Shown here piece by piece: positions 1 to 22,475 of a stretch of 34,356 nucleotides of DNA (its first letter is position 1; each line of letters opens with the position of its first letter). The translations under genes and the position numbers were made by a program. Source of the DNA: an uncultured bacterium (GTDB taxonomy: Bacteria > Oederibacteriota > CAKKQC01); contig CAYNUZ010000003.1 in the NCBI GenBank assembly GCA_964400385.1, positions 1 to 34,356 on the forward strand. The letters are read 5' to 3'. The notes under the pieces were generated by a model, which had not been told where the DNA came from, made no database searches, and saw only the letters and a program-made list of their open reading frames with translations.

Positions 1-169
1 CCCGCCACACCCCCTCGACCAAGCGCCGCATCACCGCCTCCGTGCCGGCCGCTCCCTCACCTGGGGGTGGCGGCGTCGGGTCCACACCCAGTTGTCGCAA
101 CACGCCGAGCCAATCCTCCTCTGCCCACATCTCGGCGATCTGACCGTCGATGACACGACGCGACTCCAT
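1..169 (-). CDS. partial CDS running off the left edge; tentative SnoaL-like/ester-cyclase-like protein
   Basis: Hand translation of the reverse strand from ATG 169 gives MESRRVIDGQIAEMWAEEDWLGVLRQLGVDPTPPPPGEGAAGTEAVMRRLVEGVWRG..., open to position 1 and therefore absent from the ORF track. The TEAVMRRLVEGVW stretch resembles the N-terminal helix of SnoaL-like/ester cyclase proteins (from memory). The competing + frame reads low-complexity RHTPSTKRR...SSAHISAI and stops at 141-143. No SD; start is ATG 169 or GTG 184. Confidence 0.35.
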   Translation of the reverse strand, partial: MESRRVIDGQIAEMWAEEDWLGVLRQLGVDPTPPPPGEGAAGTEAVMRRLVEGVWR

Positions 170-1265
170 AGAGATGAAAGGCACAGGGCGCGCGGAGGCC
201 CGGATCCCCGTCACCGTCCGGGTGCTCGCGGGGAACCTGCCGCCCCTCGACTTCCCGACCGGCCTCTTCTTCAGCGCAATCCCGGTGCCGCGCCCGCTCC
301 TGCCCGATGACGCGACCTACTGGCGGCTGACCGGCCGGCTCCTCGACCGGCTGGCGCAGGCCGGGCGGACCTGCCTGACCAGCGGCCCGGATTATGCGCT
401 CACCTGGAAGGGTGGCGCGGCGGTGTGGGAGGGCGCGGACGCGGTCCGGGTCATCCGGATGGCCCGGGAGCGCGGACCCGTCCTCGCCGTCGTGAACTAC
501 GGCGGGTTCGACCGGGGGCTGCGCGACTTCACGCCGCCCCCGGGGATGGCGGCCGGGCCGGCGCTGGCCGAGGCCGGCCGGGCCTGGCTCGCCTTCGAGA
601 AGGCCAACGGCCTGCCACCGCACTACGTCTATGCGTATGACGAACCCGGGGTGGAGGACGACTTCCTCCCGATCTGGCCGCGGCTGGCCGCCCTGGAAGC
701 CGCGCACCTGCGCACGATCGGGTTTACCAGCATCGAGGACCCCGTGCACGCGGATGCCAACCACCTGCGGCTCCTGCGGGAGACGTTCGCGCCCGCGTTC
801 AACGAGCACACGCCCGCCACCCTGGCGGCGGTGACGGCGCTGGGCCACGAGCCGTGGGTCTATAACAACGGCCTCGGGCGGTACGAGCAGGGCGTGCACC
901 AGTGGCGCAACCGCAAGGCCGGGATGGCCGGCCGGCTCGACTGGATCGGGGCCATCGTGCAGGGATTCCAGTTCGACGCGCTCGATGCGCGGGAGCCCGA
1001 CCCGTCGTGCTTCTACGTCCACGCCACGCTGGGTGTCCTCGTGGCGCCCCGGTACGTGGGGCTGTGCGAGGGGACGCTGGACGCGCGGCTCCTGTTCGAG
1101 CTGGAGCGGCGGGCCGCCGCCGGCCGCGGCGCCTGGGTCCCGAAGGCCCGGGCCCTGCTCGACAGCCTGCTCGCCCGCCCCTACCGCACCCCCATGGCGG
1201 ACGCGGAGCTCACCGCGCTGCGTTCCGCGGTGCTGGACCTGCTGGAGGCCGCCGCGAAGGACTAG
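150..1265 (+). CDS. hypothetical protein, weakly glycoside-hydrolase/TIM-barrel-like (DUF4091-like)
   Basis: 371-codon ORF with strong G/C third positions and protein-like sequence (ARIPVTVRVLAGNLPPLDFPTGLFF...). The YVYAYDEPG and WVYNNG segments recall DUF4091/GH-like proteins (weak, from memory). Start is ambiguous (ATG 150, ATG 174 or GTG 222), bounded by an in-frame stop at 141-143. Confidence 0.75.
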   Translation: MTRRDSIEMKGTGRAEARIPVTVRVLAGNLPPLDFPTGLFFSAIPVPRPLLPDDATYWRLTGRLLDRLAQAGRTCLTSGPDYALTWKGGAAVWEGADAVRVIRMARERGPVLAVVNYGGFDRGLRDFTPPPGMAAGPALAEAGRAWLAFEKANGLPPHYVYAYDEPGVEDDFLPIWPRLAALEAAHLRTIGFTSIEDPVHADANHLRLLRETFAPAFNEHTPATLAAVTALGHEPWVYNNGLGRYEQGVHQWRNRKAGMAGRLDWIGAIVQGFQFDALDAREPDPSCFYVHATLGVLVAPRYVGLCEGTLDARLLFELERRAAAGRGAWVPKARALLDSLLARPYRTPMADAELTALRSAVLDLLEAAAKD

Positions 1266-4673: not shown

Positions 4674-7600
4674 CTAATTGACCGTGACGCGGAAGCAGGC
4701 ACAGCCGGTTGTCTGGACGCCGGCCATCGGCACGGTCCACCGCAGCCACTTGGTGCCGACCGGCGGCAGCCCGGCGGCGAAGGAGGCGGCCGGCGGCGCC
4801 ACCGCGGAGGTCGAGGTGGACGACGAGACGGTCACCGCCACGCCGTCGGTGCTGCCGCAGTCGAACGGCGCGGTCGTGGCCTCCGGCAGGAACGTCGTCC
4901 CCATGGGGATGGCGTCGGTGATGACGAAACTGAACGCCGAGGCGCTGGAGTAGTTGCTCCAGCAGACCTGGAACCGCACGGTGTCGCCCGAGGCCGCGAT
5001 GGAGAGACCGGGCGTCTTGGTCAGCTTGACGTCCGCGCCGACGACCATCACCGTCGTCAAGCCCAGGATGGAGCCATCCACGGTGTCCATGCCCACGATG
5101 GTCTGGAGCCCCAGCTTGGTCATCGTCACGTTGATGAACATCTTGACCCCGTTGTCGCAGCCGTTGACGCACCCGGCGCCCTTGCACGGCGCGCCCGGGT
5201 CGTTCGAGTCCCACGTGTAGTTGTAGGTGTCCATGGGCGTCCCCTCGATCAGGGCCTTGGAGTCGGTCGAGGTGAACGAGGTGGAGCCGCAGTAGTCGGT
5301 CTTGGTGCTGCCCGCGCTGTCGATGACCAGGACCGTGATCCAGAACGACTGGCCGGCGAAGACGGTCGGGGGGGCGATGATGATGTAGTGGTCGCCGGTG
5401 CGGACGAACGGCGCCGTGAAGAACTTCTCGGTGATCTTCGCCTGGTGGTACTGGGCCACCATGTCGCCCTGGGCGCCGCCCGCGTTCAGCGTGATCCGGT
5501 AGTTGATCCGCGCCCCACTGCCGGGGTTGGTGAAGGGCATGAAGACGATCGCCTGGTCCACGCCGTCGGTCGTGTACCGGGCCGAGTAGCCGCCTCCCGC
5601 CGCGTTGGACGAGTTGATCTGGACGCCCATGCCGATCTTGGGGCAGAACACGTTGATGTACAGCGTGCCCGGCGTGCTCGCCACCGCGTGGTGGAACCAG
5701 AATTCCTGGCCGGCCTGCAATCCATCGGCGGAGTGGAGGTTGGACGCCCCGGACCAGTGGCTGAAGATGTTCCCGCCCGTATTGACCTGGATGGGCCCGC
5801 CGCCCGTCAACTCGATCTTCCAGAGCGTGGCGTAGGTGGTGGACGCCATGGTGGTGTCGTAGCCCCCGCCGTACACGTGCGCATTGCCGCTCACGCCGGC
5901 CAGCGGCGTCAGCCCCGGATTGACCGTGTCCGTCGCCTTCGGCAGCCAGATGCCCGCCGAGCCGGCCATCGTGGTCGGCCACGCGGTGCTCGGGACCTTG
6001 GTGTTCAGCGGCTGGTACTTGTAGACGCGGTACGTGGCCAGCGACCCCATCGAGGTGTTCCCGACGATGCAGTTCGGGGTCAGGCTCGGGTGCGCGATCG
6101 GGTAGAAGCTGCCCAGCCCGACCTGGGACACCAGGTTGCCGTTGTCCCGGTTGGGCACCATCCCGCCGTGGTTGTCGAACGCCCCGCCAATCCCCGGCGC
6201 GCCGAACGTGTGATAACCCTGGTAGATCATGTTCTGCGCGTCGGAGGAGATGATCCGGAAGTGGTAGATGGTGTCCACGGTCGGGCCGTAGGTCCCCTCC
6301 AGCGGCATCCAGCAGCTCTCCGCCGCGATGAACCCGGTCTTGACGTAGTCCCATGAGAGCGTGGCGGGGTTCCACTTGAAGAGGTGCACCGTCGTGTCCA
6401 GGTTCCCGTCAAACACATTGTTCGAATTCATGCTGGTGTTGATGATCACCAACCGGTCCCCGTGTCCGATGGTGTTCAGACCGTTCTGATCCGGACGCAT
6501 CGTCGTGTAGTGCATGAATCCGACGTACGACAGGCTGGTGGACGGCAGATACGTAAACGAGTCGTCGTTCGAATCGGATCCCTCGGTCATGGTGAGCCAC
6601 AGGATCGGCGAGTTCGAGGAGACCTTGTAGAGGAAGTCGAAGGGATAGGTCGGGCAGATATCGTCCCAGATGCCCGGCCAGTACATGGACGGGGCCCGCT
6701 CGATCTTGCACCCGGGGTTCGAAAGCCCGCCGTCGGCCGGATAGCCCCCGACGCACGACCCGACCAGCGTGTTGATGGTCGCGCTCTTCCCGCCGGTCAC
6801 CGCGACGCCGATGCCGGGGTACTCCAGCTTCCGGAACTCGAAGTTCGTGCTCATGTTGAGCGGGAAGAACGTCACGAAGAACCCGGGGCACACGCCCTTG
6901 TCGTCCTCCGAGGCCGCATAACTCGTGTACGAGAAGTAGGTGGTCCGGAGGATGATGATCGCCAGGTGCGTGAAGTTGGCCGGCTTGACCGAGCTGCCCG
7001 TCCCGTTGAAGATCCCCGTCCGCCCTTTTTCCAGCAGCGAGACCCGGTTGATGGCCGTCGAGTTCGCCGGGACGGTGGGCCGCAGTTTCGTCTTGTACCG
7101 CAGGGTCAGCGTGTACTGCGGAGCCATGTCCAGTGTCCAGGTGAGGATCGTCTTCGAACCGGAGAGCACCTTCCCGGCGCTGGCGGCGGCGCATCCGGAC
7201 GGCGTCATCGTCCAGCCCGTGCACGGATCCTCGAGGCCGTACCCCGGACCCCACACGTCCAGCTCCGCGGGGACCGTGTCCCAGACGCTCACGTTCCACC
7301 AGGTCTTCCGCAGCGAGACGTTCTTGAGGAAGATCTCGTACGTCATCTCGTCGTCCGGCACGCCGTAGCCCGCCGCGAACAGGATGTCGTTGCTCCCCAC
7401 CTTCCAGAAGAGGAACCGAGACACCACGGTGTCGGTCGGCGCGCTCACCATCGTCGGACTGCATGAGGCTCCGCCCCAGAACGACTGCGCGACGTTGTTC
7501 AGCCGCTGCCCCTCGGGCGCGGCGACGTCGCCGGATCCCGGCTCGAACAGCTCGCCGTTCCCCCAGTCCACCGTGAGCGAGAAGATGACCGATCCCGTCG

Positions 7601-8495
7601 GACCGCCGGCGGTCGCGAGCGGGCCGGGGATCGTCCACCGGAGGCGGATCGGCGGCCCGATATCGGGATCCCACAACGGGTCGGCGGCGGGCACCGCGCT
7701 GCCGGTGACGTAGTGGGTAAACGGGGGCACACTGTCAATCAGCGTGATGGGGGAAATGGCCGCCGTCCCCGGCCGGCCGTAGTAGATCGTGTACGTGATG
7801 GTGTCGCCCGGCGCCGCGGCGTCCAGGTTGCCCTCCTTGGTGAGGTACCGGATCTCCTTGGGCGTGGTGTCGGTCGTGTCCGCCCACGGCGCCGACCACC
7901 CGCACGTGTCGTACAACCCGCCGGGATTCGCCGGGTCGATGATGTCGTTGAATCCGGGCCCGAGCTCCACGGTCGCGCCGTCGGTGGGACACGACCCGAT
8001 GTCGGTGTACACGTACAGGTTGGGATACCCGAGGCAGGCGGTGGTCGGGTCCGTGCCAAACGGGATCGCCCCGGCCCACGTCCAGCACGGGTAGGTCTGG
8101 ATCCCGATGGTCCACACGCCGGCGTAGGTCATCGTGACCAGGCCCGAGTTTGTGCCGCCGCAGATCAGCTGGAAGTACATCGCCTTGATGTCGCCCGCCG
8201 CGCCCCCGCTGGCCGTGCCGTAGTTCATCATCGTGAGCCCGGTGATCGAGGACGTCGGGCACCCGCACGTGAGGTCGTCGCATTCGCCGATCACGAACGA
8301 GGACTGGGGAACGTGGTACCAGTTGGGGAAGATCGTCTGGTAGTTGGAGAAGGGGGCGATGGGGTTGGCGAGGAAATCCACGAACCCGTCCGCCCGCGCG
8401 GCGTCCGCCGCCAGCACGCACATCGCGATCGCCGCCATCCGGATGAACGCGCCCCCCCGCGCGCCCGGTTCCTGGCGGCACTGCCGGGTCGTCAT
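4674..8495 (-). CDS. 1273-aa secreted cell-surface protein. Architecture: signal peptide, Cys-rich N-domain, three DUF11-type repeat modules, one Ig-like module and a ~560-aa unassigned beta-rich core
   Basis: Signal peptide AFIRMAAIAMCVLAADAARA|DG. DUF11/conserved-repeat-domain signatures at aa ~216-310 (YLTKEGNLDAAAPGDTITYTIYY...LIDSVP), ~360-472 and 1154-1273 (VKLTKTPGLSIAASGDTVRFQVCW...ITDAIPMGTTF). G/C third positions remain high throughout. AGGAG lies 10 nt upstream of the ATG. Confidence 0.9.
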   Translation of the reverse strand: MTTRQCRQEPGARGGAFIRMAAIAMCVLAADAARADGFVDFLANPIAPFSNYQTIFPNWYHVPQSSFVIGECDDLTCGCPTSSITGLTMMNYGTASGGAAGDIKAMYFQLICGGTNSGLVTMTYAGVWTIGIQTYPCWTWAGAIPFGTDPTTACLGYPNLYVYTDIGSCPTDGATVELGPGFNDIIDPANPGGLYDTCGWSAPWADTTDTTPKEIRYLTKEGNLDAAAPGDTITYTIYYGRPGTAAISPITLIDSVPPFTHYVTGSAVPAADPLWDPDIGPPIRLRWTIPGPLATAGGPTGSVIFSLTVDWGNGELFEPGSGDVAAPEGQRLNNVAQSFWGGASCSPTMVSAPTDTVVSRFLFWKVGSNDILFAAGYGVPDDEMTYEIFLKNVSLRKTWWNVSVWDTVPAELDVWGPGYGLEDPCTGWTMTPSGCAAASAGKVLSGSKTILTWTLDMAPQYTLTLRYKTKLRPTVPANSTAINRVSLLEKGRTGIFNGTGSSVKPANFTHLAIIILRTTYFSYTSYAASEDDKGVCPGFFVTFFPLNMSTNFEFRKLEYPGIGVAVTGGKSATINTLVGSCVGGYPADGGLSNPGCKIERAPSMYWPGIWDDICPTYPFDFLYKVSSNSPILWLTMTEGSDSNDDSFTYLPSTSLSYVGFMHYTTMRPDQNGLNTIGHGDRLVIINTSMNSNNVFDGNLDTTVHLFKWNPATLSWDYVKTGFIAAESCWMPLEGTYGPTVDTIYHFRIISSDAQNMIYQGYHTFGAPGIGGAFDNHGGMVPNRDNGNLVSQVGLGSFYPIAHPSLTPNCIVGNTSMGSLATYRVYKYQPLNTKVPSTAWPTTMAGSAGIWLPKATDTVNPGLTPLAGVSGNAHVYGGGYDTTMASTTYATLWKIELTGGGPIQVNTGGNIFSHWSGASNLHSADGLQAGQEFWFHHAVASTPGTLYINVFCPKIGMGVQINSSNAAGGGYSARYTTDGVDQAIVFMPFTNPGSGARINYRITLNAGGAQGDMVAQYHQAKITEKFFTAPFVRTGDHYIIIAPPTVFAGQSFWITVLVIDSAGSTKTDYCGSTSFTSTDSKALIEGTPMDTYNYTWDSNDPGAPCKGAGCVNGCDNGVKMFINVTMTKLGLQTIVGMDTVDGSILGLTTVMVVGADVKLTKTPGLSIAASGDTVRFQVCWSNYSSASAFSFVITDAIPMGTTFLPEATTAPFDCGSTDGVAVTVSSSTSTSAVAPPAASFAAGLPPVGTKWLRWTVPMAGVQTTGCACFRVTVN

Positions 8496-8637
8496 TGTGC
8501 CGTCACTCCTGCTCCCGCCTCGATTCTAGCCCACCGGCCCCGTTCGTGCCTCCCCGGGGACCCCCGAGGGGTGCGTCCGCCCGGCCCACGCCCCCCTGCG
8601 CCACCGCAAATCGGGCGGCCAGGGCGGCCCCGGGACG

Positions 8638-9402
8638 TCATCCTCCCTCCGCGTATCCCCAGCGGCGCCGGACCCACCGCTCCAGTCGCCGGAAGGCGAG
8701 GTAATCCACGGTGGACCCGATCGCCACGATGACCAGCATGACCCCGAAGAGGGCCGCGACGTCCCCGGCCTTGCGGCCCTGCAGGAGCAGGAACCCCAGT
8801 CCGCGGTCCACGTCGAGAAGCTCCGCTGCCATGAGGCTCCGCCATGCGAAGTTCCAGCCCTGCTTGGTCCCGGCCAGCATCGCGGGAAAGGCGGCCGGAA
8901 AGATGACCCGCACGTAGACCGCGGCCCCCTGCGCCCCCAGGGTCCGTCCCGCCCGCAGGAAGATCGGCGGGACATTCTGGATCGCGGTCCAGGTCGTGGC
9001 GGCGATGGTCGGCAGCGCACCCATCACCACCACGAACAGGATGGCCGGTTCGCCGCGCTGGAACCAGAGGACGGCCAGGGGCAGCCAGCACACCGACGGG
9101 AGGGTCTGGAGGCCGAAGACGATTCCCCCCAGCGACTCGCTCAACCGGCGGGACCGCGCCACCAGGATGCCGAGCGCCACCCCGGCCACGACGGAAAGCC
9201 CGAACCCGGCCAGGAGCCGGGTAAAGCTGGCGGCCGCGCCCCATCCCAGCGAACCGTTCCGGACCCCGGCGGCGAGGTACGCGGCGACGGCAGCCGGACC
9301 CGGAAACATGGCGGGGGGCCAGAGCCCGGACCCTGCCAGCGCCCACCAGGCCACGAAGAGCGCGGCGGGAACGGCCGCCCGGTGGAGCCCGAGGCGGCTC
9401 AC
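8638..9402 (-). CDS. ABC importer permease, NitT/TauT (SsuC/TauC/ThiX-like) family
   Basis: Multi-TM protein with a binding-protein-dependent permease loop (AAELLDVDRGLGFLLLQG) and overall resemblance to SsuC/TauC. The GTG start overlaps the ATPase stop (GTGA). Confidence 0.9.
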   Translation of the reverse strand: MSRLGLHRAAVPAALFVAWWALAGSGLWPPAMFPGPAAVAAYLAAGVRNGSLGWGAAASFTRLLAGFGLSVVAGVALGILVARSRRLSESLGGIVFGLQTLPSVCWLPLAVLWFQRGEPAILFVVVMGALPTIAATTWTAIQNVPPIFLRAGRTLGAQGAAVYVRVIFPAAFPAMLAGTKQGWNFAWRSLMAAELLDVDRGLGFLLLQGRKAGDVAALFGVMLVIVAIGSTVDYLAFRRLERWVRRRWGYAEGG

Positions 9403-10196
9403 AGCGACTCCTCGGTGCGGGTGACGGGATCCACCCAGGAGGAGATGCCCGCGCGCAGCTCCTTGGCGATCCGGAGCACGGGCGCGTCATCCACGGACCG
9501 GGGACGCGGCAATTCCACCCGGATCTCCCGGGAAATCCGGCCGGGGCGCGCCGACAGCAGGACCACCCGGTCCCCCAGCGCCACCGCCTCCTTCAGGCCG
9601 TGCGTGACGAAGACGAAGGTGCACCAGGTCTGTTCCCAGAGTTCCTGCAGTTCCCCCTGCAGCCGCTCACGCGTGTGGGAGTCCAGCGATGAGAACGGTT
9701 CGTCCATGAGGAGGAACTTCGGCTCCATGGCCAGGCCGCGCGCGAGCGCGACCCGCTGCTTCATCCCGCCGGACAACTGGTGGATCAGGGACCGGCGGTT
9801 CTCCCGCAGGCCGACCAGACCGAGGTACTTGTCCACCCGGTGCTCCGCCTCGGCGGGCGCCAGGTCGAGCCGCTCGAGCCCGAACCGCACGTTGCCCTCG
9901 ACCGTCAGCCACGGGAAGAGGCCGAGATCCTGGAAGAGCATGACCCGTTCCGGGGACGGCCCGGTGACCGCGCGCCCCTCGGTCAGGATTTCGCCCCCGT
10001 CCGGACGGTCGAAACCGGCAATCATCGAAAGGATCGTGGATTTTCCGCACCCGGAGGGTCCGACGATCGTCAGGAACTCGCCCCGGCGGACGGAGAACGA
10101 GATGCCGTCCACGGCGTGCACCTCACCGTCCTCGCCGGCAAACCGCTTGGAGAGGCCCTTCACGTCCAGCACGACCGGTTCCTGGGGCGACGTCAT
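9399..10196 (-). CDS. ABC importer ATP-binding protein, NitT/TauT family
   Basis: Walker A GPSGCGKST, signature LSGGMKQRVALARGL, Walker B FLLMDEPFSSLD, H-loop VTHG. The canonical N-terminus MTSPQEPVVLDVKGLSKRF starts at ATG 10196. The 90 extra residues in the track ORF are low complexity and lie over the riboswitch. Confidence 0.93.
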   Translation of the reverse strand: MTSPQEPVVLDVKGLSKRFAGEDGEVHAVDGISFSVRRGEFLTIVGPSGCGKSTILSMIAGFDRPDGGEILTEGRAVTGPSPERVMLFQDLGLFPWLTVEGNVRFGLERLDLAPAEAEHRVDKYLGLVGLRENRRSLIHQLSGGMKQRVALARGLAMEPKFLLMDEPFSSLDSHTRERLQGELQELWEQTWCTFVFVTHGLKEAVALGDRVVLLSARPGRISREIRVELPRPRSVDDAPVLRIAKELRAGISSWVDPVTRTEESL

Positions 10197-10294
10197 CGCG
10201 GCAGGGTCGAAGCGCACGCGGGACACGGGCGGGATCGGACGGCGGACGGATGGAGGGGGCGGACACGGGGGGACGGCACGGCGGCACGGTTCAC
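10193..10294 (-). CDS. candidate 33-codon leader ORF, translationally coupled to the ABC ATPase
   Basis: GTG 10294 lies 6 nt after a strong SD (AAGGAGG, 10307-10301). The frame reads VNRAAVPSPRVRPLHPSAVRSRPCPACASTLPR, and its TGA shares ATGA with the ATPase ATG. The ATPase has no SD of its own. Confidence 0.4.
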   Translation of the reverse strand: MNRAAVPSPRVRPLHPSAVRSRPCPACASTLPR

Positions 10295-10300
10295 GGGATT
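10201..10300 (-). repeat. degenerate short-repeat tract (CCGTG x5, CCGTCC x3, CCCGTGTCC x2)
   Basis: Counted by hand on the minus strand. The 9-mer CCCGTGTCC occurs at 10269-10261 and 10229-10221, exactly 40 nt apart. Confidence 0.6.
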
Positions 10301-10311
10301 CCTCCTTCGGC

Positions 10312-10426
10312 CTATCGTTCGGGGCGCCTCGCGGCGCTCCCCTGGCGTTCCCACCTCGCCCCCGCGCAGGCCGGAGGCCGGTTGGAGAAGGGTCATCGGG
10401 CCAGTCCCTCGCCTTCCTCTTGATAG
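10312..10426 (-). promoter_or_regulatory. SAM-I (S-box) riboswitch aptamer
   Basis: Minus strand reads CUAUC AAGAG GAAGG C GAGGGA CUGGCCC GAUGA C CCUUC UCCAACC ... GGUGGGAACGCCAG GGGAGCGCC GCGA GGCGCCCC GAAC GAUAG. The invariant S-box blocks are present: AUCAAGAG, GAGGGACUGGCCCGAUGA, CAACC, GGUGnnAAnnCCAG and closing GAUAG. P1, P2 and P4 helices can be drawn by hand. Confidence 0.8.
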
Positions 10427-10468
10427 CGTCGCGTGCCGGGTTGGCTCTCCCGGTCGCCGACTTCAAGA

Positions 10469-10497
10469 ATTACAGCACCCGGGTTGGGGGCTGTCAA
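10469..10497 (-). promoter_or_regulatory. near-consensus sigma70 promoter: TTGACA - 17 nt - TGTAAT with extended -10 TGc
   Basis: Minus strand reads TTGACA (10497-10492), gcccccaacccgggtgc, TGTAAT (10474-10469). This stands out in ~70% GC DNA. The predicted TSS near 10462 gives a ~265-nt leader. Confidence 0.7.
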
Positions 10498-10520
10498 GAA
10501 CCGATGTATATAAGGAAGGC

Positions 10521-12368
10521 ATGTGGCGCCTGCTCTCGCTCCTTGCCTGCGCCGCGGCGGCCCGGGCCGGCCTCCTCCCGCCGCCCCGCGAACTTCGGAC
10601 GGGTGCGGGGGCGGCGCTCGACCTGCGGGCGGGCTGCCGCATCGTTGCAGCCAACGCGGCGGATCCGCGGCCGGCCCGCTACCTGGCCACGGAGCTGGCC
10701 GCCCGCGGCATCGCGGTCGGCGCCGCCGGACCAGGGGTCACGCTGGTGATCGAGGGGGGAACCGGCACCGGCATCGCCGCGCAGGGCTACCACCTCGCCG
10801 TCTCCCCGGCCGGGGCCACGCTCCGCGCGTCCTCCGCCGCAGGCGCGTTCTACGGCGGCGTGACGCTGCTCCAGTGGATGGATGCCGCCGGGGGGCCCGC
10901 GGCGGTTCCCGCCGTCGACATCGAGGACGCGCCCGACCTGGCGCTGCGCGGGCTCACCATCGACTTCCGGTACGCCGGCCTCTCCGAGGCCCGCATCCGG
11001 CGGGCCATTGATCGCGCCGCCTCGCTCAAGGCCAACCTGCTTGTCTGGTGGCTCCAGGACCGGTTCGCCTGGAAGAGCCATCCCGAGCTCGCAGGGCCGG
11101 GGGCCCTCTCGGCCACCACCTGGAAGGACCTGGTCGCCTACGCCGACGCCCGGTTCATCCAGATGGTCCCGTACGTGGACGCCTATGGCCACGGCGAGCG
11201 GTACCTCGAGTCACCGGGGTGGAAGGCGGTGTCCCGTGGCGAGCACGGGTACTGGGGGGAGGACGACCTCCAGTACTGCGCCTCCCACCCGCAGTCGTGG
11301 ACCCTCTTCGACGACCTGTCCCGCGAGGCGGCGGCGGTGTTCACGAACTCCCCCTGGCTGCATGTCGGCATGGACGAGGTGGGGGCGCAGGACGGCCACC
11401 TCTGCGCGGAGTGCCGGGCCGCGGTGAGGAGCATCGCGAAGGCCTCCGGGGAACCCGCCCCGTACCCCGCCGCCCGCAACCGGTTCGTGGCCCGCCGGCT
11501 CGCCGAGGCGGCCCGCCGGGCGGCGAAACTCGGCCGCCGGGTCATGTGCTGGGACGACTCCGCGACGGACGTGGGGACGCTGGCGTTCGGCCCGGGCGGG
11601 ATCGACGCCGTGCCCGACGGCGTCATGCCGCTGCTCTGGCACTACGACGCCGATCCGGGCCCGCTTCGCGCCGCCCTCGCGCGGCCCGCCGCCCGCCGGT
11701 TCCCGACCCTCGTGGCGACCTCGTCGAACGACCCGGACAACATCCTGCACGACCTGGCGGCGACCCGCGACTTCCCCCAGGTGGCCGGCGCGGTCGCCAC
11801 GATCTGGGAGGGGGATGTCCGCGGGTTCGAACGGCGGTGGCCGGGGTTCACGCTGGCGCTCGCGCTGGGCTGGAACCGGTCCACGACCGGCGCGGCGTGG
11901 GACCAGGCGGAAGCGGAAGGGCCGGCGGGCTGGACGCCGCTGGCCGATCCGGAGGGGTGGCTTCCCGACGGCGCGGATTCGCCCGCCGCGGTCCGGTGCC
12001 CCGCGGCCTCCCGGGCCGTCCGGTTTCCCTGCCCGTTTCCCGGGCTCACGGACTGGCGCTGCGTCTGGGACGCGGCCACGCGACTGGACCTCTCCGCCAT
12101 GATGTCCGCCCACCTGCGGGTCCGGGCCGCCGATCCCGACGCGGTCGGGTCGCTGGTCGTCTACTTCAAGTCCGGCCCGGGGTGGTACCGGATGCCGGAC
12201 CTGCATCCGGCCCGCGCGTGGGTCACGGCCGAATGGTCCCTCGGCTCCGCCCTGCCGGAAGGCAAACCGGCGGGGTGGAAGGCGGTGGATGGCGTGCGCG
12301 TGAGCCTGTTGCCGGCGGCGGGTCCCCGGCGGACGACGACGGTGGACCTGGAGTTCCCCGCGGACTGA
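10521..12368 (+). CDS. secreted glycoside hydrolase family 20-like (beta-N-acetylhexosaminidase-like) protein with C-terminal extension
   Basis: Signal peptide MWRLLSLLACAAAARA; GH20b-like N-domain (GYHLAVSPAGATLRASSAAGAFYGGVTLLQ); barrel start APDLALRGLTIDF; HVGMDEV Asp-Glu pair. The track ORF start at 9780 is rejected. Confidence 0.8.
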   Translation: MWRLLSLLACAAAARAGLLPPPRELRTGAGAALDLRAGCRIVAANAADPRPARYLATELAARGIAVGAAGPGVTLVIEGGTGTGIAAQGYHLAVSPAGATLRASSAAGAFYGGVTLLQWMDAAGGPAAVPAVDIEDAPDLALRGLTIDFRYAGLSEARIRRAIDRAASLKANLLVWWLQDRFAWKSHPELAGPGALSATTWKDLVAYADARFIQMVPYVDAYGHGERYLESPGWKAVSRGEHGYWGEDDLQYCASHPQSWTLFDDLSREAAAVFTNSPWLHVGMDEVGAQDGHLCAECRAAVRSIAKASGEPAPYPAARNRFVARRLAEAARRAAKLGRRVMCWDDSATDVGTLAFGPGGIDAVPDGVMPLLWHYDADPGPLRAALARPAARRFPTLVATSSNDPDNILHDLAATRDFPQVAGAVATIWEGDVRGFERRWPGFTLALALGWNRSTTGAAWDQAEAEGPAGWTPLADPEGWLPDGADSPAAVRCPAASRAVRFPCPFPGLTDWRCVWDAATRLDLSAMMSAHLRVRAADPDAVGSLVVYFKSGPGWYRMPDLHPARAWVTAEWSLGSALPEGKPAGWKAVDGVRVSLLPAAGPRRTTTVDLEFPAD

Positions 12369-13748
12369 TCAGTCGTGCAGCGGGGGCAGGACCCGCTTCT
12401 GGAGCGTGAGCATCTCGTCCACGCACGCCACGGCGGCACGGTACGAGTGGACGGTCGGCTCGAGCAGCATCGCCTGCAGCAGCTTCGCCTTCGACCGCTC
12501 CGCGTACGCCTCGACGAGCAGCTTGTGGATGCTGGCGTACGTGCGGCAGACCGCGGCGATCGCCTCCGGCAGCGGCTCCATCCGCCGGGGCGTCCAGCCC
12601 TTCCCGTCGGCGTCGGCCGGCACCTCGACCACCATGTCGTCCGGCAGGTTCGGGATCGCCCCGCCGTTGCGGCAGTTGAGGGCGAGGATCTCGTGCCGCA
12701 CCCCGCACGCCAGCGCCTCGATGAGCGGAACCGCATACTCGCCGGAGAACTTGAGCGGCCGGTTCCGGGACCGGTCGTCCGGGCTCCCCTTCCCGTCGGG
12801 CCGTTCGCGGGGCGCCGCCCGCCACGGCCGGTCGGTGGAGGTATACCCCAGCGAGTAGACGAACTCGGGCAGCCGGCCGCCCCCGGCCCACGGATGGCCG
12901 TCCGCGGGATCGTAGAAGAACTGGGCCTCGGACGCGTAGAACTCGTCGGCCCAGCGCAGGTACTCCCCGTGGTGGTTGGTCCCCGGTGAGGGCCAGAGCC
13001 CGAACCGGCGGAAGAGCACCCGCGACAGGACCAGCTCGTGGAAGTCCGCGAGCCAGTCCCCCTCGCGCTCCGCCGCGCGCAGCGCGGGGTACAGGTCCGC
13101 GCCCGTGGCCCGGTCCCGGACCTCCTGGAACCAGGTGAAGTGGTTCATGCCGCACGCGGCGAACGTCATGGAGCCGACGGGCCGGCCGAGGATGTGCGCG
13201 ATCTGGCGCATCCCCATGAAGACCCCGTGGCAGAGGCCGACCACCCGGATCGGGGACAGGCGGGACACCGCCTCCACCAGCTTGGTCTCGGGGTTGGTGT
13301 AGTTGATCAGCACCGCGCCGGGCGCCAGCCGCTCCATGGCCCGGCAGACCGCCAGCGTCGGGCCCATGTTCCGCAGCGCGTGGAAGAGGCCGCCCGGGCC
13401 GCCGTTCTCCCCGTACACCTGGCGGAAGCCGTAGGTGCGCGGCACATGGAAGTCCTGGTTCCAGTACCGGTACCGGTCGCGCTCGATGGCGGTCACCACC
13501 GCCGTGGCGCCGTCCACCGCCGCGTCCAGCCGGGTCGTTCCGGACACGACCGCGCCGGCCTTGAGCCGCCGGTTGACCCGGCGGGCATAGGCCAGCGTCT
13601 CGTCCAGCGCCTTGCGCGAGACGTCCATCAGCACGAGCTCGACGCCCCGGGCCCGCAGCGGGCGGCTGAGCAGGACGTCCCGGACGGTCGCCGGGCCGAA
13701 ACTCCGGCTCCCGGCCCCGACGAGCGCGATCTTCACCCGTGTCCCCAT
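12369..13748 (-). CDS. glycoside hydrolase family 4 (NAD+/Mn2+-dependent alpha-glucosidase/alpha-galactosidase-type)
   Basis: KIALVGAGS NAD-binding N-terminus, INYTNP and VVGLCHGV motifs, 459 aa. Confidence 0.92.
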   Translation of the reverse strand: MGTRVKIALVGAGSRSFGPATVRDVLLSRPLRARGVELVLMDVSRKALDETLAYARRVNRRLKAGAVVSGTTRLDAAVDGATAVVTAIERDRYRYWNQDFHVPRTYGFRQVYGENGGPGGLFHALRNMGPTLAVCRAMERLAPGAVLINYTNPETKLVEAVSRLSPIRVVGLCHGVFMGMRQIAHILGRPVGSMTFAACGMNHFTWFQEVRDRATGADLYPALRAAEREGDWLADFHELVLSRVLFRRFGLWPSPGTNHHGEYLRWADEFYASEAQFFYDPADGHPWAGGGRLPEFVYSLGYTSTDRPWRAAPRERPDGKGSPDDRSRNRPLKFSGEYAVPLIEALACGVRHEILALNCRNGGAIPNLPDDMVVEVPADADGKGWTPRRMEPLPEAIAAVCRTYASIHKLLVEAYAERSKAKLLQAMLLEPTVHSYRAAVACVDEMLTLQKRVLPPLHD

Positions 13749-13855: not shown

Positions 13856-14506
13856 GTGCCAAGACCGTCGCACAACGCCGATGCCCGCCTGATCCAGGCC
13901 GCGCTCGACCTCATGCCCCGGCAGGGACTGGCCGCGCTCAAGGTCCGGCAGGTCGCCGCCAAGGCGGGGGTCAACCTGGGCATGTTCCACTATCATTTCA
14001 AGTCGAAGCGCGAATTCACCCGCCGGGTCCTCAAGGCGTTTTACGAAAGATTTTTCGAGCGCCTCACCACCGCCATCGCCGCCGCGGAAGGCGCCCCGCC
14101 GCGCGAGCGCCTGCGCAGCGCGATGCTGGCGATCATCCGGTTCGGGCGGGAGCATCGCGGCCACTTCCTCTCGATCCTCCGGGATCTCCTGGACGGCAAC
14201 CAGGAGGCCATGGCCTTCGTCCGGGAGAACTTTCCCCGGCACGTCTCCATCATGTTCCGCCTGCTCCGGGACGCGCAGCGGGCCGGCGTGGTCCGCCGCC
14301 TTCCCCTCCCCGTGCTCCTGCCTGTCCTGGCGGCCCCCCAGCTCGTCCCTGTCCTGGCGGTCGCCGCGGTGGAACGCTTCTTCGCCGGGAAGCTGCTCGG
14401 CTTCCCGGTCGCCGGACTGGCCCGGCTGCTCCTGACCGACCGGATGATCGGCGCCCGCCTGGACCTGTCGCTGGCCGCGGTGTCTCCGGGCGGCCGGCGC
14501 CCATGA
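13856..14506 (+). CDS. TetR/AcrR family transcriptional regulator
   Basis: HTH LKVRQVAAKAGVNLGMFHYHFKSKREF. GTG start with a GGAGGGAG SD 6 nt upstream. Confidence 0.93.
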   Translation: MPRPSHNADARLIQAALDLMPRQGLAALKVRQVAAKAGVNLGMFHYHFKSKREFTRRVLKAFYERFFERLTTAIAAAEGAPPRERLRSAMLAIIRFGREHRGHFLSILRDLLDGNQEAMAFVRENFPRHVSIMFRLLRDAQRAGVVRRLPLPVLLPVLAAPQLVPVLAVAAVERFFAGKLLGFPVAGLARLLLTDRMIGARLDLSLAAVSPGGRRP

Positions 14507-15855
14507 TCGGGCCGGGTCTCCTCCTCCTGGCCCTCGCGGGTCGCGCCCAGGCCGATCCGCCTCCCGTGTTCGCGATGGGGTTCGACGGCACGGTGCGGGC
14601 GGCGCTGGCGGCCTCCAACCAGCTCCGCGCCGCCGGACGGGAGGCGGACGCGGCCTCGACGCGGGCCAGCGGGGCCGGCGGGAGCCTCTGGCCGGCGCTG
14701 GCGGTGGACGGCTCCTACCGGTACGTGGCCGAGGTGCCCTCCCTCACCGTCTTTCCGGGCAAGGCCCCCGTGGACCTCGGCGCGCATGACAATTATTCCG
14801 TCGGGCCGACGGCCACGTGGACCGCCTGGGACTGGGGCGCCTCCTACGAGGCCTGGCGCGGCGCGCGGGACCGGGCCGACGCGGAGGCGGCGCAGCGCGA
14901 CCTCGCGCGCCGGCAGGTGAGACTGGGCGCCGCGGTGACGTACATCCAGGCCCAGATGGCGGCCGAACAGGTCCGGCTGCTCGCCGACGCGGCCAAGGTG
15001 GCCGAGGTCCAGCACCACGACATCGCGCTGCGGCAGTCCACCGGTGCGTCCAGCCGGCTCGAGACGCTGCAGGCGCACCAGGAGCTGCTGGCCCGCCAGC
15101 GCGGATTCGCGCAGGCGCGGGCGGACCTCGCGGCGGCGCTGCAGGACCTCTTCGTGCTCACCGGGACCGGGACCGGCCTCGACGCCTCCGCCCCGGTGGA
15201 TGCGCGGGTCACGGGCGACCTCCCGCCCGCCAGCGCGCCGGCGACGCTGGTCGTGCAACTCGATCCCCTCGATGCGGCGCTCACCGCGATGGCGGCGACC
15301 GCGGAGGGCGGGCCCGACCCGGCGTACCCGCGCGTGCGGTACTTCGAGCGGCTGGGGAACGCGGCGCGGCGGGCGGCGACCGGGATCTCCGTCTCGCGGC
15401 TCCCGAAGATCCAGGTCTCCGGCCGGATCAGCCTGGACTATCCGAACGGCCCGCTCCTGGAGCAGATCACCCAGAAATCCGCCGGGGTCGTCGCCTCGAT
15501 GCCGATCTTCACGGGGAGCCGGTTGGTGCGGGAGGCCGGGGAACAGCGTGAGCACGCCGCCGCGTTCGAGGCCCAGCAGCAGGCGGCCCGGGCCGACCTG
15601 GCCCGCGACTGGCGCAAGGCCGCCGACCGGTACCGGCTCCTGCGGGCCCAGGCCGAGCTGAACCGGCAGGCGGCCGCCGAGGCGAAGGAGACGGCCGGAC
15701 TGGTCTACGCATCCTACCGGGGCGGCCAGGCCCGGTTCATCGAGGTCGAGACCGCGAACCTGCACACGCTCGAGGCCCTGGTCCAGGAGGCGCGCACCAA
15801 GGCCGAGATGCTGACCCAGCTCGCCATCATGCACAGCCTGTCCAAGGAGGACTAA
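14503..15855 (+). CDS. TolC-family outer membrane efflux protein
   Basis: Signal peptide MIGPGLLLLALAGRAQA and two OEP-type repeats with long Ala/Arg/Gln/Leu-rich helices. The ATG overlaps the TetR stop (ATGA). The upstream part of the track ORF (13612..) is rejected. Confidence 0.9.
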   Translation: MIGPGLLLLALAGRAQADPPPVFAMGFDGTVRAALAASNQLRAAGREADAASTRASGAGGSLWPALAVDGSYRYVAEVPSLTVFPGKAPVDLGAHDNYSVGPTATWTAWDWGASYEAWRGARDRADAEAAQRDLARRQVRLGAAVTYIQAQMAAEQVRLLADAAKVAEVQHHDIALRQSTGASSRLETLQAHQELLARQRGFAQARADLAAALQDLFVLTGTGTGLDASAPVDARVTGDLPPASAPATLVVQLDPLDAALTAMAATAEGGPDPAYPRVRYFERLGNAARRAATGISVSRLPKIQVSGRISLDYPNGPLLEQITQKSAGVVASMPIFTGSRLVREAGEQREHAAAFEAQQQAARADLARDWRKAADRYRLLRAQAELNRQAAAEAKETAGLVYASYRGGQARFIEVETANLHTLEALVQEARTKAEMLTQLAIMHSLSKED

Positions 15856-15862
15856 GCAACCC

Positions 15863-16597
15863 ATGCCCCCCAAACGCATCCGCATCATCGTCGGCGTGCT
15901 GGTGACCGTGCTGACGGTCCTGGTCATCCGGCGCGTGTTCTTTCTCGACGAGTTCCGGTACGCGGGCACCGTGGAAGCGACCGAAGTGGACGTCCCCGCG
16001 CGCATCGCCTCCGTCATCGCCACGGTGGACGTCAGGGAGGGGCAGGATGTGGCCGCCGCCGCGCCGCTCTTCCACCTCGCGGGCGAGGACATCCGGCTGG
16101 CCGCGGACCTCAACGAACGGAACTACCAGCGGGCGAAGACGCTCTTCGACGGCGGGTCCATGCCGCAGGCCGAGTTCGACCGGCTCCGGTTCCTGCGGGA
16201 GGACAGCGCCCTCAAGGTCCGCTGGCTGACGATCCGCGCCCCGCTCGCCGGCACCGTCCTCAATACCTACTTCGAGGCGGGGGAGATGGTGGGCCCGGGC
16301 GCGCGCGTCGCCACGCTGGCGGACCTCTCGGAGGTCTGGGCCTGGGTCTACGTGCCGCAGCCGGTGCTGGCGTCCCTGAAACTGGGCCAGGCGGTTACGG
16401 GCGCCCTGCCCGAGCTGCGCAAGAAGGTCTTCGCCGGCCGGCTCGCGGAGATCCGCGAGAGGGCCGAGTTCACCCCGAAGAACGTCCAGACCCGGGAGGA
16501 GCGCACCCGGCTGGTGTACGGGGTCAAGGTCGCCTTCCCCAACCCGGACCGCATCCTCAAGCCGGGGATGACGATCGAGGTCGCGCTCGCGCGCTGA
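15863..16597 (+). CDS. HlyD-family membrane fusion protein (YbhG-like, short)
   Basis: N-terminal TM helix, lipoyl-like halves (VDVPARIASVIATVDVREGQDV ... IRAPLAGTVLNTYFEAGEMV) and a C-terminal beta-barrel segment (RLVYGVKVAFPNP...KPGMTIEV). Confidence 0.9.
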   Translation: MPPKRIRIIVGVLVTVLTVLVIRRVFFLDEFRYAGTVEATEVDVPARIASVIATVDVREGQDVAAAAPLFHLAGEDIRLAADLNERNYQRAKTLFDGGSMPQAEFDRLRFLREDSALKVRWLTIRAPLAGTVLNTYFEAGEMVGPGARVATLADLSEVWAWVYVPQPVLASLKLGQAVTGALPELRKKVFAGRLAEIRERAEFTPKNVQTREERTRLVYGVKVAFPNPDRILKPGMTIEVALAR

Positions 16598-16610
16598 AGG
16601 AAGCCGGACG

Positions 16611-21455: not shown

Positions 21456-21456
21456 C

Positions 21457-22398: not shown

Positions 22399-22475
22399 AC
22401 CATGGCCAACGTGAATGTCGGCGTGAGCTGCCTCGCGGACTCGGCATCTGCCGCCTCGCTCACGAGGCTTGCCAG

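What the first reader, a model, noticed from the sequence alone, without database searches (positions are those of the whole stretch)
4674..8495. 1273-aa secreted DUF11/Cys-rich surface protein with a ~560-aa core that matches nothing I recognise
The architecture read from the translation is as follows.
- Signal peptide (cleavage near ARA|DG).
- 180-aa N-domain with 8 Cys (C72, C77, C79, C112, C137, C154, C169, C198).
- Two DUF11-type modules (aa ~216-310 and ~360-472).
- An unassigned Asn/Thr/Ser/Tyr/Trp-rich core (aa ~473-1035, nt 5391-7079).
- An Ig-like module (APPTVFAGQSFWITVLVIDSAG...YCGSTSFTSTD...).
- A terminal DUF11 module.
The core carries four similarly built strand motifs at roughly 105-150-aa spacing: KVSSNSPILWLTMTEG, RIISSDAQNMIYQGYH, IELTGGGPIQVNTGGN and RITLNAGGAQGDMVAQYH. 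There is no LPXTG, PEP-CTERM or obvious T9SS-type sorting signal. DUF11 is the repeat of the chlamydial Cys-rich adhesin OmcB. Here it frames a large unknown domain, in a gene sandwiched between SAM-regulated transporter genes and a c-di-GMP phosphodiesterase regulator.
Basis: partly seen in the sequence, partly recalled or inferred. Interest (0 to 1): 0.75.

Follow-up and report, generated by a model that had tools for sequence, protein, structure and literature searches.

The report
Expanded surface-protein family with unassigned core
This gene encodes a large secreted all-beta protein whose 540-residue centre matches no described protein family or solved structure; a small group of uncultured groundwater bacteria carries 15 to 28 or more diverged copies per genome, and they are most likely surface binding proteins, though none has been tested.

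Summary
The ORF is real. It lies on the minus strand (4674-8495) and encodes 1273 aa with GC3 0.94.

- **Family matches.** Only the C-terminal DUF11 (now "CLIPPER") domain passes the Pfam and NCBIfam cut-offs. The two internal "DUF11-type" modules fall below Pfam threshold, but profile-profile comparison supports homology.
- **The core (aa ~496-1034).** It has no Pfam, NCBIfam or PDB-sequence match. AlphaFold2 models it with confidence (pLDDT 89.9, pTM 0.91) as a compact all-beta unit of about 32 strands. Foldseek against PDB and BFVD returns only weak jelly-roll/CBM-type matches (TM ≤0.2).
- **Rarity.** An exhaustive HMMER search of 1.84 billion representative proteins finds 66 relatives. Nearly all are the same ~1250-aa architecture or fragments of it.
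- **Expansion.** A pattern scan of one genome for each of 185,579 species found it in only four (Candidatus Coatesbacteria-type MAGs), with at least 15, 26, 12 and 4 copies.
- **Variation.** Paralogues are about 46% identical. The scaffold domains are conserved, while the core and N-domain vary.
- **Context.** The gene neighbourhood is not conserved, and no SAM riboswitch is present.
- **Distant relatives.** They place the same core ahead of DUF11 repeats and a T9SS-like tail, an adhesin layout.

Best reading: a diversified surface ligand-binding family with a new head domain. Function is untested.

The parts
4674..8495 (-). Whole ORF, 1273 aa plus stop codon (stop at 4674-4676)
   Evidence: GC3 0.94; more than 120 full-length homologues
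8523..8528 (-). -10-like hexamer TAGAAT, 33 nt upstream of the ATG, followed by a GGAG-rich Shine-Dalgarno-like stretch; possible own promoter
   Evidence: TAnnAT occurs upstream of 5 of 17 family genes against 0.97 expected from shuffles; weak evidence
8391..8495 (-). Signal peptide, aa 1-35 (hydrophobic core aa ~14-32, ARA|DG)
   Evidence: all 32 aligned homologues have an N-terminal hydrophobic leader ending A-x-A/D or a lipobox-like ..A-C
7854..8390 (-). N-terminal Cys-rich all-beta domain, aa 36-214 (8 Cys; about 10 predicted strands); one of the two variable regions of the family
   Evidence: no family match
7428..7853 (-). Divergent DUF11/CLIPPER-like domain D2, aa 215-356; K220/D254/N334 conserved in 29-31 of 32 sequences
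   Evidence: PF01345, 12.3 bits; hhalign to C-terminal domain, prob 87%, P 4e-6
7011..7427 (-). Divergent DUF11/CLIPPER-like domain D3, aa 357-495; K365/D406/N483 conserved in 18/32/24 of 32 sequences
   Evidence: 12.4 bits; D2-D3 P 1.8e-4
5394..7010 (-). Unassigned all-beta core, aa 496-1034; four blocks of about 8 strands each (aa ~504-641, 642-767, 768-913, 914-1034); the most variable part of the family
   Evidence: (pLDDT 89.9, pTM 0.91)
6579..6626 (-). Hairpin motif 1, KVSSNSPILWLTMTEG (aa 624-639); K624, N628, P630, W633 conserved even in distant relatives
6210..6257 (-). Hairpin motif 2, RIISSDAQNMIYQGYH (aa 747-762)
5769..5816 (-). Hairpin motif 3, IELTGGGPIQVNTGGN (aa 894-909); G900 and G907 conserved
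5445..5498 (-). Hairpin motif 4, RITLNAGGAQGDMVAQYH (aa 1000-1017)
5046..5393 (-). Ig-like 7-strand beta-sandwich, aa 1035-1150; conserved; no family match
4677..5045 (-). C-terminal DUF11/CLIPPER domain, aa 1151-1273; best-conserved part; every family member ends ...GC[AV]C[FY][RK]VxV[N/Q/D]

Best explanation
The gene encodes one member of a lineage-specific, heavily expanded family of exported cell-surface binding proteins (adhesin- or lectin-like) in a diderm Candidatus Coatesbacteria-type bacterium.

Proposed working:
- The signal peptide takes the protein across the inner membrane.
- The conserved modules form a stable, disulfide-bonded and possibly isopeptide-locked scaffold. These are the two divergent CLIPPER/DUF11 domains, the Ig-like domain and the C-terminal CLIPPER domain with its fixed ...GCxCFRVxVN end. 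The C-terminal domain is the candidate attachment or sorting module.
- The two variable parts carry ligand specificity. These are the N-terminal Cys-rich domain and the 540-aa core, a rigid pack of four ~8-stranded jelly-roll-like beta-sandwich blocks.
- The ligands are most plausibly glycans or other particulate or polymeric substrates.
- The many paralogues are diverged versions for different ligands.

Shown: the architecture, export signal, fold class, rarity, expansion and conservation pattern. Inferred: surface location, binding function, ligand class, isopeptide bonds and the role of the C-terminus.
For: - **Export.** An N-terminal signal-like leader is present in all 32 aligned members. 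Cysteines C112, C169, C345, C581, C596, C1178, C1265 and C1267 are invariant, which fits an oxidising extracytoplasmic location.
- **Diderm host.** The window encodes a TolC-type OEP and a LolA-like protein.
- **Fold.** All-beta models with high confidence: pLDDT 88.3 / pTM 0.85 for aa 36-1150, and 89.9 / 0.91 for the core.
- **Whole-model matches.** Foldseek matches are multi-beta-sandwich extracellular proteins.
- **Core matches.** Weak matches are to jelly-roll carbohydrate-binding or lectin-type modules: Cry1 protoxin C-terminal domains, botulinum HA70, Vip3, neuropilin, PNGase F, allantoicase.
- **Conservation pattern.** Scaffold domains show 0.53-0.61 identity to the target. The N-domain and core show 0.41-0.44.
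- **Conserved residues.** Residues conserved out to the most distant relatives are mostly Gly, Pro and aromatic. No conserved acidic pair is seen.
- **Distant relatives.** They place the same core at the N-terminal end, ahead of 3-8 DUF11/DUF7507 repeats and a FlgD_ig / Por_Secre_tail-like C-terminus. This is the head-stalk-anchor layout described for CLIPPER-containing fibrillar adhesins (PMC12617251).
- **Expansion.** At least 15, 26, 12 and 4 copies in the four genomes that have it. Median pairwise identity is 0.46, and nearest neighbours are at 0.70.
- **Neighbours.** Some paralogues sit beside glycoside hydrolase genes: GH20 and GH4 here; GH31, GH116, a fucosidase and a CBM9 protein elsewhere.
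Against: - No binding, localisation or expression data exist.
- No recognised anchor or sorting signal was found in this family: no LPxTG, PEP-CTERM, T9SS CTD, lipobox or TM segment.
- The 'stalk' is only two or three domains, not a long tandem array.
- The jelly-roll/CBM similarity is weak (TM ≤0.2, rmsd above 10 Å). No CBM or lectin family is detected by sequence.
- Carbohydrate genes are not consistent neighbours. The 76 flanking proteins hit 135 Pfam families, and none occurs in more than 3.
- Model coordinates could not be inspected, so the packing of the four blocks, the disulfides and the Lys-Asn distances are unverified.
Confidence: 0.5

Rival explanations
1. The core is a catalytic domain: a new jelly-roll-type polysaccharide hydrolase, lyase or amidase displayed on the cell surface. 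The paralogues would then be enzymes for different substrates.
For: Several Foldseek hits are jelly-roll enzymes: GH11 xylanase XynJ, PNGase F, allantoicase and PHM. Some paralogues are adjacent to GH and sugar-catabolism genes. A few polar residues are conserved throughout the family: E599 (90% or more), R600, K624, N628, D645, N813, D980 and K1024.
Against: All these matches have TM ≤0.25 and rmsd of 12-20 Å or more. No CAZy-type Pfam family is detected in any of 15 diverse cores at E ≤5. Residues conserved out to the distant relatives are dominated by Gly, Pro, Trp and Tyr, with no conserved Asp/Glu pair. The core is the least conserved region of the protein, which is unusual for a catalytic domain. 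The neighbourhood is not consistently carbohydrate-related.
Confidence: 0.15
2. The family is a variable surface coat, a set of alternative envelope proteins. Its diversity would serve evasion of phages, predators or competitors, or envelope architecture (S-layer- or porin-like DUF11 proteins), rather than substrate binding.
For: There are many dispersed paralogues, possibly each with its own promoter-like element. Variable exposed parts sit on conserved scaffold and C-terminal parts. There is no conserved operon partner. DUF11 domains also occur in archaeal and bacterial envelope proteins and porins (PMC12617251).
Against: Paralogues are anciently diverged (about 46% identity) and retained as roughly 70%-identical counterparts in related genomes. 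This looks like stable functional specialisation rather than rapid antigenic turnover. No repeats, invertible elements or cassette structure were seen near the genes inspected. No lattice-forming or beta-barrel features are predicted.
Confidence: 0.15
3. It is a secreted toxin or effector component related to Cry/Vip3/HA70-type proteins.
For: The best core Foldseek hits are Cry1Ac/Cry1Aa/Cry1Ca/Cry8Ba protoxins, Vip3, botulinum HA70 and binary-toxin translocases.
Against: E-values are only 1e-6 to 1e-3, with probabilities 0.1-0.8, TM 0.07-0.18 and rmsd 25-44 Å. No helical pore-forming domain is present: the models are all-beta with only 4-residue helices. The host is a free-living groundwater or sediment lineage. 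The matching parts of those toxins are their carbohydrate-binding jelly-roll modules (own knowledge).
Confidence: 0.03

Closest known systems
Fibrillar adhesins with CLIPPER (DUF11, PF01345) stalk domains, e.g. Acinetobacter silvestris B9T28_05395 (PDB 9IFR; PMC12617251)
   Same: Exported all-beta multidomain protein containing CLIPPER/DUF11 domains. The conserved Lys/Asp/Asn positions in D2 resemble the isopeptide triad. A Cys-x-Cys in the last strand of the C-terminal domain recalls the CTTC disulfide motif. Distant relatives of the core (P0137, P0173, P0175, P0178) have a true head, DUF11-repeat stalk and C-terminal tail layout.
   Different: There are only three DUF11-type domains, two of them below Pfam threshold, and they are not tandem. 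The core sits in the middle, not at the tip. There is no recognised anchor (OmpA-like, LPxTG or T9SS). The head domain is a new family. The family is expanded to dozens of paralogues.
Chlamydial cysteine-rich outer membrane protein OmcB (DUF11 repeats plus Chlam_OMP6, PF03504)
   Same: Cys-rich, exported, and contains DUF11-type domains.
   Different: The target has no Chlam_OMP6 match. OmcB has no equivalent of the 540-aa core. The lineage and size are unrelated. The resemblance is limited to one shared domain type.
Multi-jelly-roll / CBM-like assemblies (Cry1 protoxin C-terminal domains 4w8j, botulinum HA70 9ug5, allantoicase 1sg3, PNGase F 1png)
   Same: These are the best structural matches of the core. 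Both are all-beta, with about 8-stranded sandwich blocks packed side by side.
   Different: TM 0.07-0.25 and rmsd 12-44 Å. No sequence relationship. The number and arrangement of blocks is not reproduced by any hit.
Alpha-2-macroglobulin / complement C3-C5 / CD109 (MG-domain proteins)
   Same: Top Foldseek hits of the aa 36-1150 model (E 1e-13 to 1e-9). Both are long strings of beta-sandwich domains.
   Different: TM 0.10-0.18 and rmsd above 30 Å. There is no helical thioester domain and no CGEQ/CLEQ motif. This is a generic multi-sandwich resemblance only.
Expanded paralogous surface-protein repertoires (e.g. Chlamydia Pmp family, Bacteroidota SusD/SusE/F-type glycan-binding lipoproteins); own knowledge, analogy only
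   Same: Many diverged paralogues per genome, with a conserved scaffold or anchor and variable exposed parts. Some copies lie next to glycoside hydrolase genes.
   Different: No sequence or fold relationship. No conserved partner gene (no SusC-like or autotransporter barrel). Function untested.

Membership tests
DUF11 / CLIPPER (PF01345, TIGR01451) | HMM match above the curated cut-off | tested here: met
   C-terminal domain aa 1155-1225: PF01345 36.9 bits (cut-off 24.6), E 5e-9; TIGR01451 49 bits (cut-off 24)
DUF11 / CLIPPER (PF01345, TIGR01451) | The two internal modules (aa 215-356, 357-495) also belong | tested here: inconclusive
   Pfam 12.3 and 12.4 bits, E 0.2, below cut-off. hhalign D2 vs C-terminal domain prob 87%, P 4e-6; D2 vs D3 P 1.8e-4; D3 vs C-terminal domain P 0.1
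DUF11 / CLIPPER (PF01345, TIGR01451) | Intramolecular Lys-Asn isopeptide bond with a catalytic Asp (PMC12617251) | not testable with these tools
   Candidate triads are conserved in sequence: K220/D254/N334 in 29/31/31 of 32; K365/D406/N483 in 18/32/24 of 32.
Fibrillar adhesin (adhesive head + tandem-repeat stalk + cell anchor) | Stalk of tandemly repeated domains | tested here: not met
   No internal repeats by BLAST. Only two adjacent DUF11-like domains plus single Ig-like and DUF11 domains. Distant relatives do have 3-8 repeats
Fibrillar adhesin (adhesive head + tandem-repeat stalk + cell anchor) | Recognised anchoring motif or domain | tested here: not met
   No LPxTG, PEP, lipobox, OmpA-like domain, T9SS CTD or C-terminal TM segment
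Fibrillar adhesin (adhesive head + tandem-repeat stalk + cell anchor) | Demonstrated or family-assigned adhesive domain | not testable with these tools
   The core and N-domain match no known adhesive or lectin family. A binding assay is needed
Chlamydial OmcB | Chlam_OMP6 (PF03504) match | tested here: not met
   No hit at E ≤1 for the full protein or E ≤10 for segments
T9SS cargo | C-terminal sorting domain (Por_Secre_tail PF18962 / TIGR04183, CHU_C) | tested here: not met
   None in the target. The distant relative P0175 has a sub-threshold hit (23.9 bits against 27), and FlgD_ig-type tails occur in P0175 and P0178
Alpha-2-macroglobulin / complement thioester proteins | Thioester motif C[GL]EQ and helical thioester domain | tested here: not met
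   Motif absent. The model has no helix longer than 4 residues
Carbohydrate-binding jelly-roll modules (CBM / galactose-binding-like) | Sequence or confident fold match to a CBM or lectin family | tested here: inconclusive
   No Pfam match in 15 cores. Foldseek hits to jelly-roll proteins only at TM ≤0.25.

The most novel reading that the evidence does not exclude
The 540-aa core is a previously undescribed protein superdomain: four fused jelly-roll blocks with signature Φ-[KR]-Φ-x-[ST] hairpins. It would serve as the ligand-recognition head of a new class of surface receptors. Its radiation into dozens of paralogues would be the main substrate-capture (glycan or particle binding) repertoire of Coatesbacteria-type bacteria. 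That would make it functionally analogous to, but unrelated to, the SusD/E/F or cellulosomal CBM systems. The invariant C-terminal CLIPPER domain would then define a new attachment or sorting signal.
Probability: 0.3. Interest if true: 0.65.

Novelty: new variant of a known kind. Interest (0 to 1): 0.5.

Why it matters
- **A new domain family.** It adds a well-defined, confidently modelled domain that Pfam, NCBIfam and the PDB do not cover. It is confined to barely studied candidate phyla, Coatesbacteria and more distantly Goldbacteria-like organisms.
- **A large genomic investment.** The carrier genomes devote about 60-100 kb to 15-28 or more diverged copies. The family is therefore probably central to how these uncultured groundwater and sediment bacteria interact with their surroundings.
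- **Uses if the binding reading holds.** The paralogues would be a ready-made library of stable all-beta binding scaffolds, and a handle for predicting substrate range from metagenomes.
- **A possible new sorting route.** The invariant C-terminal domain may mark an unrecognised surface-attachment route in diderm bacteria that lack the usual signals.

Tried and rejected
- **SAM riboswitch or regulatory RNA.** Rfam at gathering threshold over the whole window gave 0 hits. The 'SAM-regulated' label was dropped.
- **Operon or guilt-by-association.** The closest homologue (70%) and 18 other loci have unrelated neighbours. The 76 flanking proteins hit 135 Pfam families, none in more than 3. This line was rejected as a source of function.
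- **PDB by sequence.** phmmer and an hmmsearch profile of 32 sequences gave nothing better than E 0.3.
- **Pfam on separate segments and on 15 diverse cores at E ≤5-10.** Only DUF11 appeared.
- **Internal repeats in the core.** BLAST self-comparison found none. hhalign between the four blocks gave P 0.04-0.4, so the repeat is not supported by sequence. It rests only on equal strand counts and equivalent hairpins.
- **Foldseek of the aa 36-1150 model.** It returned only generic multi-sandwich proteins at TM ≤0.18. The alpha-2-macroglobulin reading was rejected: no thioester motif and no helical domain.
- **Foldseek of the core against viral BFVD.** TM ≤0.2.
- **N-terminal domain alone against the 5.8-billion-protein index.** Only 3 fragments of the same family came back, which was uninformative.
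- **Cluster look-up of the distant relatives.** No names. One 88%-identical fragment is labelled Candidatus Goldiibacteriota.
- **Sigma-70 and terminator scan around the gene.** Nothing convincing.
- **Paralogue in the same window.** None.
- **Foreign origin.** The lower GC of the gene (0.62-0.68 against 0.72) comes from codon position 1 (0.52), while GC3 stays at 0.94. It reflects amino-acid composition, not horizontal transfer.

Full report
**1. The observation**

The interval 4674-8495 holds a single ATG-to-stop ORF of 1273 codons, but on the minus strand. The plus-strand frame is broken by stops.

Third-position GC is 0.94, as in the neighbouring genes. First-position GC is only 0.52, against 0.70-0.78 in the neighbours. 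That explains the local dip in GC (0.62-0.68 against about 0.72) as an amino-acid composition effect rather than foreign DNA.

All listed sequence features are present:
- The eight N-domain cysteines are at the stated positions.
- The four strand motifs are at aa 624-639, 747-762, 894-909 and 1000-1017.
- The Ig-like strings are there.
- There is an N-terminal hydrophobic leader ending ARA|DG.
- LPxTG, PEP, lipobox and T9SS-tail signatures are all absent.

**2. Family assignments**

- Only the C-terminal domain passes curated thresholds: PF01345 at 36.9 bits (cut-off 24.6) and TIGR01451 at 49 bits (cut-off 24).
- PF01345 has recently been renamed CLIPPER. It has been shown crystallographically to be a CnaA-like fold that can carry a Lys-Asn isopeptide bond (PMC12617251).
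- Profile-profile comparison of family sub-alignments links module D2 (aa 215-356) to the C-terminal domain (probability 87%, P 4e-6) and D2 to D3 (aa 357-495; P 1.8e-4). The modules are best described as divergent DUF11-type domains.
- Lys/Asp/Asn positions that could correspond to the isopeptide triad are conserved. K220/D254/N334 occur in 29-31 of 32 sequences. K365/D406/N483 are less conserved. This is a sequence-level inference, because model coordinates could not be inspected.
- The N-domain, core and Ig-like module have no Pfam or NCBIfam match even at E ≤10.
- None of 15 diverse cores matches any Pfam family at E ≤5.
- PDB sequences give nothing by phmmer or by a 32-sequence profile.

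**3. Structure**

AlphaFold2 with a 56-sequence family alignment gave confident all-beta models. Mean pLDDT was 88.3 and pTM 0.85 for aa 36-1150. For aa 490-1040 the values were 89.9 and 0.91. The high pTM of the core alone indicates one rigid unit.

Its roughly 32 strands fall into four blocks of 7-9 strands (aa ~504-641, 642-767, 768-913, 914-1034). The blocks are not significantly similar in sequence (hhalign P 0.04-0.4). The four-fold build is therefore a structural inference, not a demonstrated repeat.

Foldseek results were as follows:
- The long model against PDB returned only generic strings of beta-sandwiches: complement and alpha-2-macroglobulin, CD109, integrin alpha and mastigoneme. 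TM was 0.10-0.18 and rmsd above 18 Å. The target has no thioester motif and no helical domain.
- The core against PDB gave a best E of 1.7e-6 with TM ≤0.18-0.25. The hits were jelly-roll proteins: Cry1 protoxin C-terminal domains, reelin, botulinum HA70, Vip3, neuropilin, allantoicase, PNGase F and SIDT1.
- The core against BFVD was no better.

The building blocks therefore look like jelly-roll/CBM-type sandwiches, but no solved or viral structure reproduces the assembly. AFDB could not be searched.

**4. Distribution**

- The word-indexed search found 198 relatives. The best 120 are all full-length (1119-1333 aa) at 44-70% identity. Where named, they come from Candidatus Coatesbacteria MAGs, with up to three on one contig.
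- An exhaustive HMMER search with a 15-sequence core profile against 1.84 billion representatives found only 66 proteins at E ≤0.001. Nearly all have the same architecture or are fragments of it.
- A pattern scan of one genome for each of 185,579 species returned 74 loci (the output cap is 80). They came from just four genomes: Hainich-H43-bin172-1, Ca. Coatesbacteria nzgw597 and two unnamed MAGs.
- Counting C-terminal domains gives at least 15, 26, 12 and 4 copies respectively.
- Across 120 members the pairwise identity is tightly centred on 0.46 (5-95%: 0.43-0.55). Nearest neighbours are typically at 0.70. This indicates an old radiation whose members are retained in related genomes.
- Along the protein, D2, D3, the Ig-like module and the C-terminal domain are the most conserved (0.53-0.61 identity to the target). 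The N-domain (0.44) and the core (0.41; lowest around aa 600-1025) are the most variable.
- Every aligned member ends at the same position, with ...GC[AV]C[FY][RK]VxV[N/Q/D].

**5. Context**

In the window the gene lies between two sets of genes:
- Upstream is an ABC permease and ATPase pair. It matches NitT/TauT-type models, with the best but sub-cut-off hits to SaoP/SaoA.
- Downstream is a receiver plus HD-GYP response regulator.

The wider context is:
- GH20, GH4, a PfkB kinase, a glucosamine-6-phosphate isomerase-like gene and an SSF symporter lie further away.
- No riboswitch is detected.
- This context is not conserved. The 70%-identical relative sits between pyrimidine-biosynthesis genes and a GH31 gene.
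- Three paralogues on another contig are interleaved with GH116, an AraC regulator and a fucosidase.
- A survey of 76 flanking proteins from 18 loci hit 135 Pfam families, with none in more than three proteins.
- A -10-like TAGAAT lies 33 nt upstream of the ATG, and similar TAnnAT elements occur upstream of several paralogues. In the 100 nt before the first possible start codon, 5 of 17 genes have one, against 0.97 expected. This weakly suggests the genes are transcribed on their own.
- The window also encodes a TolC-type OEP and a LolA-like protein, so the organism is diderm.

**6. Distant relatives**

Four distant core homologues have different architectures:
- P0137 is 2024 aa.
- P0173 and P0175 are both 1087 aa.
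- P0178 is 1459 aa.

An 88%-identical fragment of the P0175 core region is labelled Candidatus Goldiibacteriota.

In these proteins the entire four-block core lies at or near the N-terminus. It is followed by 3-8 DUF11/DUF7507 (CLIPPER/CLIPPER_2) domains, in some cases by Ser/Thr/Pro linkers, and by a FlgD_ig / Por_Secre_tail-like C-terminus. This is the head-stalk-anchor layout of fibrillar adhesins.

The four hairpin motifs are the most recognisable conserved landmarks in this wider alignment. The positions conserved throughout are mostly Gly, Pro, Trp and Tyr, plus K624, N628, D645, N813 and K1024, with no conserved acidic pair.

**7. Interpretation**

The best-supported reading (confidence about 0.5) is an exported, surface-displayed binding protein. 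Conserved CLIPPER-type and Ig-like domains would form a stable scaffold. The variable N-domain and the new four-block core would provide specificity. Paralogue radiation would supply different specificities, most plausibly for glycans or other polymers.

Shown:
- the architecture and export signal;
- the all-beta fold class;
- the absence of any family or structure match for the core;
- the rarity, the expansion and the conservation pattern;
- the adhesin-type architecture of distant relatives.

Inferred:
- surface location;
- binding function and ligand class;
- isopeptide bonds;
- a sorting or attachment role for the invariant C-terminal domain.

The rivals are:
- a surface-displayed enzyme (0.15);
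- a variable envelope coat (0.15);
- a toxin component (0.03).

**8. Novelty and score**

The overall type, a multidomain DUF11-containing surface protein, is known. New here are three things:
- the 540-aa core as a domain family with a confident model and no structural counterpart in the libraries searched;
- its restriction to a few candidate-phylum genomes;
- its expansion to dozens of copies per genome.

I rate this a new variant of a known kind, with interest 0.5. It is a solid lead for domain curation and for the biology of uncultured lineages. It has no functional evidence, and lineage-specific expanded surface families are not rare in themselves.

Noticed in passing
window 8523-8528 (-); also L018, L024, L027, L077 upstream regions: A -10-like hexamer TAGAAT lies 33 nt upstream of the target ATG. 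TAnnAT elements (TAGAAT, TATCAT, TAGGAT) occur just upstream of several paralogues despite about 70% GC. In the 100 nt before the first possible start codon, 5 of 17 genes have one, against 0.97±0.94 in shuffles. This may be a shared promoter type for the family.
   Followed up: partly
L002 2058-18629 (contig ERZ27247709 k141_925362); L004 1949-9683; L006 1954-9762: Paralogues occur in clusters. Three lie within 17 kb, interleaved with GH116, an AraC regulator and an alpha-L-fucosidase, with a CBM9 protein nearby. Tandem pairs occur elsewhere, at 49-66% identity between cluster members.
   Followed up: partly
alignment A1 N-termini, e.g. P0010, P0012, P0051, P0062, P0079: Some paralogues have lipobox-like leaders (..VAGAC..LRAC..SPAC..AAGC). 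Others, including the target, end A-x-A|D. The family may mix lipoproteins and soluble exported forms.
   Followed up: no
window 9399-13748 and 20568-26854: Amino-sugar and carbohydrate catabolism genes surround the target: GH20 (about 10500-12368, +), GH4 (12369-13748, -), a glucosamine-6-phosphate isomerase-like gene (20568-21455), a PfkB kinase (21382-22398), GFO/IDH/MocA oxidoreductases (1272-2327, 22476-23672), an M20 peptidase (about 23900-24997) and an SSF symporter (25295-26854).
   Followed up: partly
window 13856-20480 (+): Efflux-type cluster: a TetR regulator, a TolC-like OEP (14503-15855), a HlyD-type adaptor (15863-16597), two ABC ATPases (16611-18268) and two ABC-2 permeases (18265-20480).
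   Followed up: partly
window 26896-31876 (+): MacB/Lol-like set: an ABC ATPase (26896-27615), two FtsX/MacB_PCD permeases (27629-29773 and about 29700-31086) and a LolA-like protein (30965-31876). This is consistent with a diderm envelope.
   Followed up: no
window 150-1265 (+), 31878-33263 (+), 33264-34355 (+): High-GC3 ORFs with no Pfam hit. For 150-1265 there is also no NCBIfam hit. Function unknown.
   Followed up: no
window 8492-9490 (-) vs 8638-9402 (-): The 332-aa ORF abutting the target start has no family match and overlaps the real ABC permease gene (the BPD_transp_1 frame). It is probably a spurious high-GC ORF, which leaves a 142-nt intergenic gap upstream of the target.
   Followed up: partly
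window 4674-8495: The local GC dip (0.62-0.68 against about 0.72) comes from codon position 1 (0.52), while GC3 stays at 0.94. It reflects the Asn/Thr/Ser/Tyr-rich composition and is not evidence of horizontal transfer.
   Followed up: yes
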